A stretch of DNA of 64,000 nt from a virus. A program made the translations under genes and the position numbers. The stretch lies in the IMG/VR virus record IMGVR_UViG_3300042546_000155; one strand, written 5' to 3'. The notes beneath the pieces were generated by a model. The model saw only the letters and a list, made by a program, of their open reading frames with translations, ran no database searches and was not told the DNA's origin. Positions 1 to 15,144 of this stretch are shown in pieces (position 1 is the stretch's first letter; each line of letters begins with the position of its first letter).

Positions 1-29
1 CCTGTGCCTTATCATCCGACCCGCAGCCC
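1..29 (-). tRNA. possible 5' end of a tRNA gene truncated by the window edge
   Basis: Reverse complement GGGCTGCGGGTCGGATGATAAGGCACAGG starts just after a sigma70-like promoter (36-65) and resembles acceptor 5' strand + D-arm; the rest is outside the window. Confidence 0.3.
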
Positions 30-71
30 AATTACTATATTACTATAGCCAGATTCAATTGTCAAACAGCA

Positions 72-254
72 TCAGGCTATCTTACTCTCCTTGAACTTGC
101 GTTGCAAGGAAACAGTAGCCTTATTTTTGAATGAATAGTATTTGCTCCATGCCTTTTCGAAGTCAAGGAATGTGCCATTATACACCGTCTTGCCAGACTT
201 GTCAATGGCTTCTACTATCCAGTAGGCGCTACGCTTTACGGTTTCCTCTTTCAT
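72..254 (-). CDS. hypothetical protein (early)
   Basis: 60-aa ORF downstream of the promoter at 285-313. Confidence 0.55.
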   Translation of the reverse strand: MKEETVKRSAYWIVEAIDKSGKTVYNGTFLDFEKAWSKYYSFKNKATVSLQRKFKESKIA

Positions 255-284
255 GCCGTAACCTCTTCTCTCAATCGTTCACAT

Positions 285-313
285 ACTATATAGGCAACAA
301 AACGCATAGTCAA
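285..313 (-). promoter_or_regulatory. sigma70-type early promoter
   Basis: TTGACT-N17-TATAGT preceded by AAAAAAAGTTC, the same upstream element as the promoter at 995-1023. Confidence 0.7.
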
Positions 314-385
314 GAACTTTTTTTACATTTTTTGTGCGACAATTTGACGCACCCTTAGTCTATAGACTGGATAGACTGTTTACAT

Positions 386-580
386 TTACTTTAGGACTGT
401 ATCGTAGTATTCCCGCTGCTTTTGTTCCATAGCAGCCTTTCGTTCCTTCTTGAAATTTTCAAACCACTCTTTAAGTCCAACATCATTCGTAAGATGTTCC
501 TGCCACTGTCTTTCGGACATTTGCCCAGAAATGTAGCACTCAAACAGTGGGTAAAACTTATCTTCCATTTCAGTCTCCAA
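386..580 (-). CDS. hypothetical protein
   Basis: ORF directly after the tRNA-like gene; GGAG upstream of the MEDKFYP start. Confidence 0.55.
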   Translation of the reverse strand: METEMEDKFYPLFECYISGQMSERQWQEHLTNDVGLKEWFENFKKERKAAMEQKQREYYDTVLK

Positions 581-583
581 ATT

Positions 584-674
584 TGGTAGGGGTGCCAGGT
601 AACGCTCCTGGTCGAGAACGGTAATCGGCCGCTAAAGGGTTTATAAGTCCCTCTTGTGTCTTACACCCACCCCC
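584..674 (-). tRNA. non-canonical tRNA-like RNA, anticodon UAU (Ile?), long variable arm, encoded CCA
   Basis: GGGGGTG/CACCCCT acceptor + A-CCA; mini D-arm GTGT-AAG-ACAC; AGAGGG/CCCTTT stem with CTTATAA loop; AGCGG/CCGTT variable arm; CCAGG-AGCGTTA-CCTGG T-arm. Confidence 0.7.
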
Positions 675-679
675 ACATG

Positions 680-886
680 TTACAGATATCCCAGAATACC
701 ACCGATTGGTAATACAAAGATACCGATACAGCGAAGGATAAACTTTGCCGTGATAGGATTGTCAATGCTATGCCAGATAGCCATGACATTGAAGATCCAA
801 CCTAGTGCTAGTGCTGCACCCACGGTAAAGAATCCAGCAACAGTACCAATAGCAAGAATATCGTCTAGTTTCTGACTCACTTTCAC
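680..886 (-). CDS. small two-TM membrane protein between the tRNA genes
   Basis: Two hydrophobic segments; probable GTG start after AAGGA; the ORF-track start (931) lies inside tRNA-Arg. Confidence 0.55.
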   Translation of the reverse strand: MKVSQKLDDILAIGTVAGFFTVGAALALGWIFNVMAIWHSIDNPITAKFILRCIGIFVLPIGGILGYL

Positions 887-898
887 ATCCTTATATAA

Positions 899-975
899 TG
901 GCGGTCCCGGAAGGACTCGAACCTTCAACAACCCGCTTAGAAGGCGGATGCTCTATCCAGTTGAACTACGGAACC
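899..975 (-). tRNA. tRNA-Arg(UCU)
   Basis: GGTTCCGTAGTTCAACTGGATAGAGCATCCGCCT-TCT-AAGCGGG...GGTTCGAGTCC...GCCA; canonical cloverleaf with CCA. Confidence 0.95.
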
Positions 976-994
976 AAATCTCTAGTGTCTGATT

Positions 995-1023
995 ATTATA
1001 TATGCCACAAACGGGAATGTCAA
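995..1023 (-). promoter_or_regulatory. sigma70-type promoter for the tRNA cluster
   Basis: Exact TTGACA-N17-TATAAT 20 nt upstream of tRNA-Arg. Confidence 0.85.
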
Positions 1024-14373: not shown

Positions 14374-15144
14374 TTACTCGGTTAGGAGAGCAACGCCTTC
14401 CTTACCAACTAGAGAATGAACACGTCCTAGGATCTGTAGCACAACACCAAAGACACCTAGTGCCATCCATCCAAAGAATACGAAGCCCCAATGTAGCGGT
14501 GCCACAAATAGCTCTTCCATAAACCAGAATGTATGACCCCACTCATTGAGCCCAACGTTTGGAATAATCATGAATGGACCAATAGCAACAATCAGGAACG
14601 CAAGGCTATATCCCTGTGCGAAGTAAGGAATACGGGTCTTCGCATAGAAGAACGCACCAACAGCGATGATTGAATAGATTGGATAACTCATGTAGAACTC
14701 AATGATATGTGACGGAGTGAAGTCGGTATCACGAATGACTGTCATATGCCAGGTACCATCTTGTTCGGTGAAGAAACTTGCACCCCAATAGATAGCAACA
14801 GCATAAACAACCAACCACTGAACTAATACAGTTAGACGACGCATTTCTTCACGAGGTGAGAGGCTTGCGAGGTCACGGTCTCTTGTCTTCCATAGGTAAC
14901 CTGCTAGTGCAAGACCTGAAACCAATTCTAGTGGAATTTCTGTCCAGAGGATACTCATCCAGTATGTCTGGAACTCTGGTGCGAACGAGTCAAGGCCGGC
15001 ACGCCAACCATATACTTGTTCATAAATACGGACTATTAGATAAAAGGTATTTAGAAGGGCTAGGCCGATCCACATACCCCTAAGGTCAACGACCTCATTA
15101 ACGCCGGTAGCCACGGCTTTCGCCGATTGATTTACAACGCTCAT
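14374..15144 (-). CDS. pmoC: particulate methane monooxygenase subunit C (Methylocystis-type)
   Basis: GLDSFAPEFQTYW, WGASFFTEQDGTWHMTVIRDTDFTPSH (Asp/His/His metal ligands), PNVGLNEWGHTFWFMEELFVAPLHWGF; TAGGAG RBS. Confidence 0.98.
   Translation of the reverse strand: MSVVNQSAKAVATGVNEVVDLRGMWIGLALLNTFYLIVRIYEQVYGWRAGLDSFAPEFQTYWMSILWTEIPLELVSGLALAGYLWKTRDRDLASLSPREEMRRLTVLVQWLVVYAVAIYWGASFFTEQDGTWHMTVIRDTDFTPSHIIEFYMSYPIYSIIAVGAFFYAKTRIPYFAQGYSLAFLIVAIGPFMIIPNVGLNEWGHTFWFMEELFVAPLHWGFVFFGWMALGVFGVVLQILGRVHSLVGKEGVALLTE

What the first reader, a model, noticed from the sequence alone, without database searches (positions are those of the whole stretch)
584..674. Non-canonical tRNA-like gene: UAU anticodon, 3-nt D-loop, long variable arm, AGCGUUA T-loop
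Seen: a complete five-arm cloverleaf with encoded CCA, in the transcript starting at the tRNA-Arg promoter. It has only one linker base before the D-stem, a D-loop of AAG (no GG), a T-loop lacking TTC, a 6-bp anticodon stem with an A.A mismatch, and a class-II variable arm. Established: bacteria usually decode AUA with lysidine-modified CAU, and tRNA-Ile lacks a long V-arm. Inference: it may be an AUA decoder for an AT-rich phage in a GC-rich host, a mischarged (Ser/Leu-identity) tRNA, or a decoy against anticodon nucleases.
Basis: partly seen in the sequence, partly recalled or inferred. Interest (0 to 1): 0.7.

Follow-up and report, generated by a model that had tools for sequence, protein, structure and literature searches.

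The report
Rebuilt phage isoleucine tRNA (UAU)
This 91-base stretch is a real, strongly conserved phage transfer RNA for the rare isoleucine codon AUA; its shape departs so far from the standard cloverleaf that ARAGORN and Rfam both miss it, and I found no paper describing its family.

Summary
It lies in the tRNA cluster of a 174.5 kb T4-like freshwater myovirus.

ARAGORN and Rfam do not call it. A covariance model built only from relatives of ordinary loop sequence, which ARAGORN calls tRNA-Ile(tat) where run, scores it 88.6 bits (E 2e-23).

The family occurs in over 120 viral contigs and always carries UAU. All five helices hold, four with compensatory changes. There is one copy in each of five related phage genomes.

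The window copy belongs to a sub-lineage that changed its D-loop (UGGU to AAG) and T-loop (UUCGAAU to AGCGUUA). This sub-lineage still shows compensatory changes, so it is not a decaying pseudogene. Conservation is 99-100% and stops exactly at base 1 and at CCA, while the neighbouring tRNA-Arg is 78-90% identical.

AUA codons in the phage align with isoleucine in related phages, not leucine, serine or tyrosine. The best reading is an AUA decoder charged with isoleucine.

The "variable arm" is a 5-bp, 7-nt hairpin with near-invariant GAU, the ordinary isoleucine anticodon. Its role is open.

This scan has noted the wider family in at least 94 other genomes. What is new here is the rebuilt D/T-loop variant.

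The parts
584..674 (-). 91-nt non-canonical tRNA(UAU) gene. In RNA numbering: acceptor 1-7/81-87, G8, D-arm 9-19, A20, anticodon arm 21-41 (UAU at 30-32), second hairpin 42-58 (GAU at 49-51), CUCGA 59-63, T-arm 64-80, A88, CCA 89-91.
   Evidence: Fold. 88.6 bits, E 2e-23, against model R1 built from canonical relatives only. Covariation. Identity to relatives stops exactly at these two ends.
899..975 (-). tRNA-Arg(UCU), first gene of the same transcription unit. In many relatives it lies about 5 nt upstream of the UAU tRNA.
   Evidence: ARAGORN, Rfam 61.4 bits. Spacing in L008 and L010.
995..1023 (-). Consensus sigma-70-type promoter (TTGACA-17-TATAAT, 12 of 12) ahead of tRNA-Arg.
   Evidence: No terminator-like site between it and the element.
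680..880 (-). Small hydrophobic ORF (66 aa from a GTG start) lying between tRNA-Arg and the UAU tRNA in this phage. It is absent at this place in many relatives.
   Evidence: ORF list, no Pfam match, present or absent among relatives.
386..568 (-). Downstream 60-aa ORF. Its GGAG ribosome-binding site starts about 7 nt after the tRNA's CCA, so tRNA 3' processing would cut just ahead of it.
   Evidence: Sequence. The ORF start is conserved in relatives. No Pfam match.

Best explanation
It is a functional, single-copy phage tRNA that reads the isoleucine codon AUA with an unmodified-by-TilS UAU anticodon. The host isoleucyl-tRNA synthetase most likely charges it with isoleucine.

Shown here:
- It is transcribed from the tRNA-Arg promoter as part of the tRNA cluster, with ends defined by strict conservation from base 1 to CCA.
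- The molecule keeps a 7/5 acceptor/T branch and a textbook anticodon loop (C/U32, U33, UAU, A37, A38), but its core is compacted: one linker base, a 4-bp D-stem with a 3-4-nt loop, and an anticodon stem of 6-7 bp.
- It carries a second 5-bp, 7-nt hairpin displaying GAU, followed by a 5-nt spacer.
- The window's sub-lineage also replaced the D-loop (UGGU to AAG) and T-loop (UUCGAAU to AGCGUUA). One G and C56 remain, which could still form the outer G19:C56 elbow pair.

Inferred, not shown: the amino acid attached, use on the ribosome, and the role of the GAU hairpin.
For: Membership and structure:
- 88.6 bits, E 2e-23, against a covariance model built only from 51 canonical-type relatives, which ARAGORN calls tRNA-Ile(tat) in the three loci where it was run.
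- Covariation: 99% of cells paired, 17 of 28 pairs with double changes, 0 of 500 shuffles as high, and slid controls at 0.133 or less against 0.452.
- The AAG-loop sub-lineage alone has 13 pairs with double changes, so structure was still under selection after the loops changed.

Conservation and distribution:
- The element is 99-100% identical in loci where tRNA-Arg is 78-90% and the helicase gene 75-80% identical. Identity ends exactly at position 1 and at CCA.
- One copy in each of five related phage genomes. It always sits in tRNA clusters.
- Wherever the full scaffold was recovered, the anticodon was UAU. Scans for 34 other than U, or 35 other than A, recovered only CUUAUAA or UUUAUAA loops. 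Position 36 was not scanned separately.
- A73 is invariant and was not imposed by the search pattern.

Meaning of AUA:
- AUA codons align to Ile 33%, AUA 18%, Val 14% and Leu 11% in relatives, like AUU and AUC and unlike Leu, Ser or Tyr codons.
- The log-likelihood is best for the Ile profile, by 149 units over Val and 351 over Leu.
- The phage encodes no match to the class Ia synthetase catalytic-domain family that includes IleRS (PF00133), nor to the TilS family PF01171, so host enzymes must serve.

From the literature, strong Ile determinants are A73 and the anticodon positions, with t6A37 at position 37 (PMC9976931).
Against: - E. coli-type IleRS (Trp905, typical of bacteria that have TilS) charges UAU tRNA poorly, and a UAU tRNA also reads AUG on E. 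coli ribosomes (PMC3575796).
- The D-loop bases reported as important for isoleucylation and editing (G16, D20, D21; PMC9976931) are absent.
- AUA is only 11% of Ile codons (338 codons). That is lower than other A-ending codons in this genome, so demand is modest.
- Allo-tRNA(UAU) species, the nearest described look-alikes, were inactive in E. coli reporter tests (PMC5389517).
- There are no expression, processing or charging data.
- The codon test shows what AUA means to the phage, not which tRNA delivers it. Its columns are also not independent, because one codon is compared with up to five genomes.
Confidence: 0.68

Rival explanations
1. It is a tRNA-shaped RNA that does not work in translation. 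It might be a decoy or sponge for a host tRNA-directed nuclease or toxin, or a regulatory or processing element in the polycistronic transcript.
For: - Sequence conservation is extreme, unpaired loops included, and far above the neighbouring tRNA-Arg.
- The D/T-loop rebuild sits in a lineage where A54 T-loops become steadily commoner: 1 of 27 and 1 of 29 in distant relatives, 7 of 25 here. That pattern would suit an arms race.
- Allo-tRNA(UAU) species were suggested not to act in translation (PMC5389517).
- AUA use is low.
Against: - The anticodon loop signature, A73 and the encoded CCA are all strictly kept.
- The scaffold is tied to a single anticodon whose codon the phage does use as Ile.
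- It always sits among ordinary tRNAs, one copy per genome.
- No nuclease aimed at tRNA-Ile or at T-loops was found in this context.
- A decoy would be expected to mimic the host tRNA's loops, not depart from them.
Confidence: 0.14
2. It is a class-II-type tRNA charged through its long arm or A73 with leucine, tyrosine or serine, so that AUA is partly read as a non-isoleucine residue, as with nematode nev-tRNA-Ile(UAU).
For: - It has a long extra arm and A73, as in bacterial tRNA-Leu and tRNA-Tyr.
- There is precedent: nev-tRNA-Ile(UAU) is charged only with leucine in vitro (PMC3333845).
Against: - AUA-aligned columns fit Ile far better than Leu (351 log-likelihood units worse). Ser and Tyr rank below the top six and are more than 680 units worse.
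- A35 instead of the U35 that I recall TyrRS uses as a determinant (from memory).
- The D-loop and core elements that I recall E. coli LeuRS relies on (A14, the G18G19 setting) are absent (sequence; the LeuRS elements are from memory).
- G73 is the discriminator of E. coli tRNA-Ser, and A73 of human tRNA-Leu blocks SerRS (PMC9976931).
- The extra arm has a conserved loop sequence, unlike ordinary variable arms.
Confidence: 0.06
3. The GAU hairpin, not the UAU hairpin, takes the anticodon position, because a 5-bp stem, 7-nt loop and 5-nt variable loop is the canonical class I layout. On this reading the molecule is a tRNA-Ile(GAU) with an inserted UAU hairpin.
For: - The second hairpin plus the CUYGA spacer reproduces the canonical anticodon-arm and variable-loop lengths.
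- GAU sits at loop positions 3-5 and is invariant in 51 canonical members. It is GAU in 11 of 12 AAG-type members and GAC in the other.
Against: - The GAU loop lacks U33 (it has C, A, G or U there) and has U, G or C rather than A at position 37.
- The UAU loop has the complete Y32-U33-NNN-A37-A38 signature.
- The phage already has a normal tRNA-Ile(GAU).
Confidence: 0.05

Closest known systems
TilS-independent bacterial tRNA-Ile(UAU), e.g. Mycoplasma mobile tRNA-Ile2 (PMC3575796)
   Same: It has a UAU anticodon read directly against AUA, an A37/A38 loop context and A73. It raises the same two problems: IleRS recognition of U34 and discrimination of AUG.
   Different: The Mycoplasma tRNA is drawn as an ordinary cloverleaf with pseudouridine at 55, and it is paired with an IleRS carrying Arg in place of Trp905. 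The phage tRNA has a compacted core, a 6-7-bp anticodon stem and a second GAU hairpin, and must use an unknown host's IleRS.
allo-tRNA(UAU), the tRNA-Sec-like tRNAs of Mukai et al. 2017 (PMC5389517)
   Same: Both have a long extra arm, a lengthened anticodon stem, a small tetraloop-type D-arm and UAU as a favoured anticodon. The canonical relatives of the window's gene score best against Rfam's tRNA-Sec model (28-31 bits), which is how allo-tRNAs were first found.
   Different: Allo-tRNAs have an 8/4 or 9/3 acceptor/T branch, a long D-stem and G73 or U73. They come from Clostridia, Proteobacteria and Acidobacteria, and some are associated with toxin-antitoxin systems. This family has a 7/5 branch (the fifth T-stem pair covaries), a 4-bp D-stem and an invariant A73, and it lives in T4-like phage tRNA clusters.
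tRNA-Pyl and mammalian mitochondrial tRNA-Ser(UCN) (review PMC7609411)
   Same: [quoted passage not shown]
   Different: Those tRNAs have a 3-nt variable region and other anticodons (CUA, UGA). tRNA-Pyl has its own dedicated synthetase. Here there is a 22-nt extra region containing a hairpin.
Nematode nev-tRNA-Ile(UAU) (PMC3333845)
   Same: It is a class-II-looking body carrying UAU, with A73.
   Different: It is eukaryotic, derived from tRNA-Leu and charged with leucine in vitro. In this phage AUA behaves as isoleucine, and the extra arm carries a conserved GAU loop.

Membership tests
Canonical tRNA (Rfam RF00005 / ARAGORN) | Reaches the detection threshold of the standard models | tested here: not met
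   No Rfam hit even at E<=10 on a 701-nt stretch. ARAGORN is silent at default settings and down to -ps80.
Canonical tRNA (Rfam RF00005 / ARAGORN) | 7-bp acceptor stem, 5-bp T-stem, 7-nt anticodon loop with U33 and a purine at 37, discriminator plus CCA | tested here: met
   Sequence and fold. The pairs are supported by covariation.
Canonical tRNA (Rfam RF00005 / ARAGORN) | Conserved core bases U8, A14, G18G19, T54-Psi55-C56 | tested here: not met
   G8, D-loop AAG, T-loop AGCGUUA. Only one G and C56 remain. Relatives have UGGU and UUCGAAU.
Canonical tRNA (Rfam RF00005 / ARAGORN) | Is aminoacylated and used on the ribosome | not testable with these tools
   Only indirect evidence is available: AUA behaves as Ile in the phage's genes.
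Phage two-hairpin tRNA(UAU) family (model R1, built here) | Significant score against a model built from canonical-type members only | tested here: met
   88.6 bits, E 2e-23, full length 1-92. Ordinary tRNAs of the same genomes score 34.5 bits or less.
Phage two-hairpin tRNA(UAU) family (model R1, built here) | UAU anticodon, G8, A73, and a second hairpin with GAU at loop positions 3-5 followed by CUYGA | tested here: met
   All are present in the window copy and invariant or nearly so in the family.
allo-tRNA (PMC5389517) | 8/4 or 9/3 acceptor/T branch | tested here: not met
   G8 faces G80. The fifth T-stem pair covaries (CG 44, GC 7, AU 2, UA 2), so the branch is 7/5.
allo-tRNA (PMC5389517) | G73 or U73 discriminator (serine-type identity) | tested here: not met
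   A73 is invariant in 56 of 56 and 12 of 12 distinct sequences.
tRNA-Sec (Rfam RF01852) | Gathering score of 47 bits, UCA anticodon, 8/5 branch | tested here: not met
   Canonical relatives reach 27.9-31.2 bits. The window copy gives no hit. The anticodon is UAU and the branch 7/5.
Class II tRNA (Leu/Ser/Tyr) identity | The codon read by the tRNA behaves as Leu, Ser or Tyr in the genome | tested here: not met
   AUA columns fit Ile. Leu is 351 log-likelihood units worse, and Ser and Tyr lie below the top six, more than 680 units worse.
TilS-independent tRNA-Ile(UAU) system (PMC3575796) | Partner IleRS adapted to U34 (Arg or Lys in place of Trp905) | not testable with these tools
   The host is not identified. 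The phage encodes no match to the class Ia synthetase family PF00133.

The most novel reading that the evidence does not exclude
The molecule may be a two-anticodon-arm adaptor. On this reading the conserved GAU hairpin is a surrogate identity element that lets an ordinary Trp905-type host IleRS, or another tRNA-Ile-specific factor, accept a U34 tRNA it would otherwise charge poorly, while the UAU arm does the decoding.

In the window's lineage the elbow would then have been rebuilt (UGGU/UUCGAAU to AAG/AGCGUUA) under pressure from a host factor that recognises or cleaves standard T-loops. That would give a tRNA independent of TilS and of the usual T54/Psi55 elbow.
Probability: 0.17. Interest if true: 0.85.

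Novelty: new variant of a known kind. Interest (0 to 1): 0.62.

Why it matters
- It shows how far a working tRNA can depart from the universal cloverleaf while staying under strict selection. The departures are one linker base, a 3-nt D-loop without GG, a T-loop without T-Psi, a 6-7-bp anticodon stem and a second anticodon-like hairpin.
- Standard annotation misses it, so the tRNA content of this phage group, and its independence from host TilS for AUA, is under-counted.
- The pairing of UAU with a conserved GAU hairpin gives a direct, testable idea about how IleRS identity can be supplied in trans within one molecule.
- A compact, odd-shaped, naturally selected tRNA is also a candidate chassis for orthogonal translation.
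- The step-wise spread of A54 T-loops through the phage's tRNA set hints at a selective agent acting on tRNA elbows that has not been identified.

Tried and rejected
- Folding energy alone: z = -1.49 on the minus strand and -0.27 on the plus strand. This is not informative.
- BLAST of the element and of a canonical relative against 50,697 deposited phage genomes gave no real match.
None of the 120 loci held a family member, only chance hits such as L462 and L415. I therefore cannot say whether bacteria carry it. Earlier notes of this scan say some do.
- Host origin of the invariant sequence: all 29 metagenome contigs carrying the AAG type show phage tRNA-cluster contexts, so there is no sign of a host copy. 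My first metagenome pattern had a miscounted spacer and found nothing.
- 8/4 alternative fold: rejected.
- Same scaffold with other anticodons: none found at positions 34 and 35. Position 36 was not scanned separately.
- Decaying pseudogene: rejected by covariation inside the AAG sub-lineage.
- Literature searches found no description of a 7/5 tRNA(UAU) with a GAU hairpin. No supplementary text is held for the allo-tRNA paper, so I could not compare sequences.
- I did not resolve whether the phage's CAU tRNA (genome 156461-156536) is Met or Ile2, so I cannot say whether AUA is covered twice.

Full report
**Where it is**

The window is the minus strand of bases 91576-155575 of a 174,499-base IMG/VR virus record rated 100% complete. 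It is 39-45% GC. It encodes T4-type replication genes, including a gp41-like helicase at 1286-2689 and a RecA/UvsX-like protein upstream. The nearest deposited phages are Synechococcus myoviruses and the Methylophilales phage Melnitz, at about 58% helicase identity.

The flagged stretch, window 584-674 on the minus strand, corresponds to genome 154902-154992. It lies at the start of a cluster of 24-25 tRNA genes. It is 224 nt downstream of tRNA-Arg(UCU) (window 899-975). A perfect sigma-70 consensus promoter sits at 1023-995, and no terminator-like site lies in between.

**Is the observation right?**

Yes.
- a 7-bp acceptor stem with G1.U72;
- the single linker G8;
- the D-arm GUGU-AAG-ACAC;
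- one base, then AGAGGG(A) / (A)CCCUUU around the loop CUUAUAA;
- a 5-bp, 7-nt hairpin AGCGG-CCGAUUA-CCGUU, followed by CUCGA;
- the T-arm CCAGG-AGCGUUA-CCUGG;
- A73 and CCA.

Folding energy is unremarkable (z = -1.49). ARAGORN finds nothing, even at relaxed thresholds. Rfam's tRNA model gives no hit at E<=10. Taken on its own, the sequence could therefore have been a chance fold.

**Relatives settle it**

A 23-mer from the T-arm and acceptor occurs in 32 viral contigs. The whole 91 nt is 99-100% identical in about 50 of the fetched loci. In those same loci the adjacent tRNA-Arg is only 78-90% identical and the helicase gene 75-80% identical at the DNA level.

An alignment with flanks shows that identity begins exactly at G1 and ends exactly at the terminal A of CCA. 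The upstream context differs between loci: in some the element lies directly after tRNA-Arg, in others after a small ORF. That is the footprint of selection on a processed RNA with those ends.

More distant relatives (L010, L050, L062) are 72-82% identical. They carry the D-loop UGGU and the T-loop UUCGAAU, and ARAGORN calls them tRNA-Ile(tat) of 92-94 nt.

On 56 distinct sequences:
- 99.0% of cells are paired;
- 17 of 28 pairs show changes on both sides;
- the covariation score is 0.452, against 0.160 for shuffles (0 of 500 as high) and 0.133 or less for slid partners.

The D-stem is uninformative because the search pattern fixed it. The fifth T-stem pair covaries, so the branch is 7/5 and not 8/4.

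A covariance model built from 51 canonical-type sequences only scores the window element at 88.6 bits (E 2e-23, full length). It finds exactly one copy in each of five related phage genomes, where ordinary tRNAs reach at most 34.5 bits.

**The window's form is a derived sub-lineage, not a wreck**

A metagenome scan for the AAG D-loop found 29 contigs. Together with the viral loci this gives 12 distinct sequences. Every one combines AAG with a non-standard T-loop (AGCGUUA, AGCAUUA or GGCAGUA), and G55-C56 is constant.

Within these 12 sequences, 13 pairs show changes on both sides and no shuffle of 500 reaches the observed values. Examples are the acceptor pairs GGGGGUG/CACCCCU, CGGCGCG/CGCGCCG and GGAGGUA/UACCUCU, and the T-stem pairs CCAGG/CCUGG, CUUGG/CCAAG and GCAGG/CCUGC.

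Plausible intermediates exist. L235 keeps UGGU but has the T-loop AUCGAAA. L177 has the window's T-stem with UUCGAAA.

The change fits a trend across the phage group. T-loops beginning with A54 make up:
- 1 of 27 and 1 of 29 tRNAs in the distant relatives G003 and G002;
- 3 of 23 in G004;
- 5 of 24 in G001;
- 7 of 25 in the window's genome.

In the window's genome, AUCGUUA occurs in Ile(GAU), Tyr and Thr(GGU). The window element's AGCGUUA is one change from that.

It is my inference that the remaining G of AAG and C56 could keep the outer G19:C56 elbow pair, while G18/Psi55 was replaced.

**What does it decode, and with which amino acid?**

In every copy where the full scaffold was recovered, the anticodon is UAU, in the loop CUUAUAA or UUUAUAA. 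Scans allowing other bases at position 34 or 35 found no other anticodon on it. A73 is invariant and was not imposed by the search.

I compared 174 crude ORFs of the phage with four related phage genomes and part of Melnitz. AUA codons align with Ile codons (33%), AUA (18%), Val (14%) and Leu (11%). This mirrors AUU and AUC and is unlike Leu, Ser, Tyr or Met codons.

A multinomial comparison of 477 AUA columns prefers the Ile profile by 149 log-likelihood units over Val and 351 over Leu. The columns are not independent, but the margin is large. AUA therefore means isoleucine to this phage, which argues against a nev-tRNA-like leucine reading (PMC3333845).

The phage encodes no match to the class Ia synthetase catalytic-domain family that includes IleRS (PF00133), nor to the TilS family PF01171. 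By inference, host IleRS is the charging enzyme.

Three cautions apply:
- E. coli-type IleRS accepts UAU poorly, and UAU also reads AUG on E. coli ribosomes (PMC3575796).
- D-loop bases reported to matter for isoleucylation and editing are missing (PMC9976931).
- AUA is only 11% of Ile codons, 338 in all.

**The 'variable arm'**

It is not an ordinary class II arm. Its base (A-U, G.U, C-G) is invariant. Its loop carries G-A-U at positions 3-5 of seven. GAU is invariant in the 51 canonical sequences, and one of the 12 AAG-type sequences has GAC instead. The arm is followed by an almost invariant CUYGA of five bases, the canonical class I variable-loop length.

So it looks like a tRNA-Ile(GAU) anticodon arm without U33 or A37, sitting beside a longer arm with a perfect decoding loop. 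I reached this reading before consulting earlier notes (my note). Earlier follow-ups of this scan on other genomes reached the same reading, and later checks priced the 'IleRS recognises the second loop' idea at 13-42 in 100. I treat it as open.

**Comparison with known kinds**

- The compact core (one linker base, G8; a small D-loop; a lengthened anticodon stem; no GG or T-Psi-C in the window form) is what is described for tRNA-Pyl and mitochondrial tRNA-Ser(UCN) (PMC7609411).
- The long arm, the tetraloop-type D-arm and the UAU anticodon recall allo-tRNAs (PMC5389517). The canonical relatives score best against Rfam's tRNA-Sec model, at 28-31 bits, below the 47-bit threshold. The defining 8/4 or 9/3 branch and the G73/U73 discriminator are not met.
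- Functionally the nearest system is the TilS-independent tRNA-Ile(UAU) of Mycoplasma mobile (PMC3575796).

My three literature searches found no description of this 7/5 two-hairpin family. BLAST of the window copy and of one canonical relative matched nothing real among 50,697 deposited phage records.

**Verdict**

This is a real gene: a member of a large, apparently undescribed family of phage tRNA(UAU), in a variant whose D- and T-loops were rebuilt so that standard tools miss it. It most likely supplies AUA decoding as isoleucine (about two in three). A non-translational role and a special role for the GAU hairpin remain open.

The scan has noted the wider family in at least 94 other genomes. 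The specific contribution here is the rebuilt-elbow sub-lineage, its exact-boundary conservation, and the codon-level evidence that AUA remains isoleucine.

Noticed in passing
genome G000:C1:154601-159192 (window 1-975 and beyond the window start): Seven of the 25 ARAGORN-called tRNAs of this phage have T-loops starting with A54. AUCGUUA occurs in Ile-GAU, Tyr and Thr-GGU; AUCGAUA in His, Asp and Glu-CUC; AUCGUGG in Lys-UUU. The share rises step by step from distant to close relatives: 1/27, 1/29, 3/23, 5/24, 7/25.
   Followed up: partly
genome G000:C1:157410-157486 and 158006-158082: The phage's tRNA-Leu(UAG) and tRNA-Leu(CAA) are 77 nt, so they lack the long variable arm usual for bacterial tRNA-Leu.
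   Followed up: no
genome G000:C1:156461-156536: The only CAU-anticodon tRNA has an irregular acceptor stem (A1 facing A72, U6 facing U67). I did not resolve whether it is elongator Met, an initiator-like tRNA or Ile2.
   Followed up: no
window 14374-15144 (-): A 256-aa ORF matches Pfam AmoC (ammonia/methane monooxygenase subunit C) at E 2.7e-109. The phage therefore probably infects an ammonia- or methane-oxidising bacterium, like the freshwater pmoC- and amoC-phages described in PMC7674155 and bioRxiv 10.64898/2026.06.18.733297.
   Followed up: partly
L089:2590-2954: A relative that carries the AAG-type tRNA(UAU) also encodes a tmRNA (tag ANDNNAYEMALAA) just upstream of tRNA-Arg. Melnitz has a tmRNA too (L516:45984-46436).
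   Followed up: no
L398 (uncultured bacterium MAG contig CALIRS010000218.1), near 1594-1620: An 89-nt tRNA-like sequence has the same GUGU-UGGU-ACAC D-arm, a GCA (Cys) anticodon and a long extra arm. This is reminiscent of the SelC*-type tRNA-Cys of PMC5389517.
   Followed up: no
window 177-205, 285-313 and 995-1023 (-): Three strong sigma-70-type promoter matches, two of them perfect 12/12, lie within 1.1 kb on the minus strand. That is more than shuffles give (7 found against a mean of 2.3).
   Followed up: no
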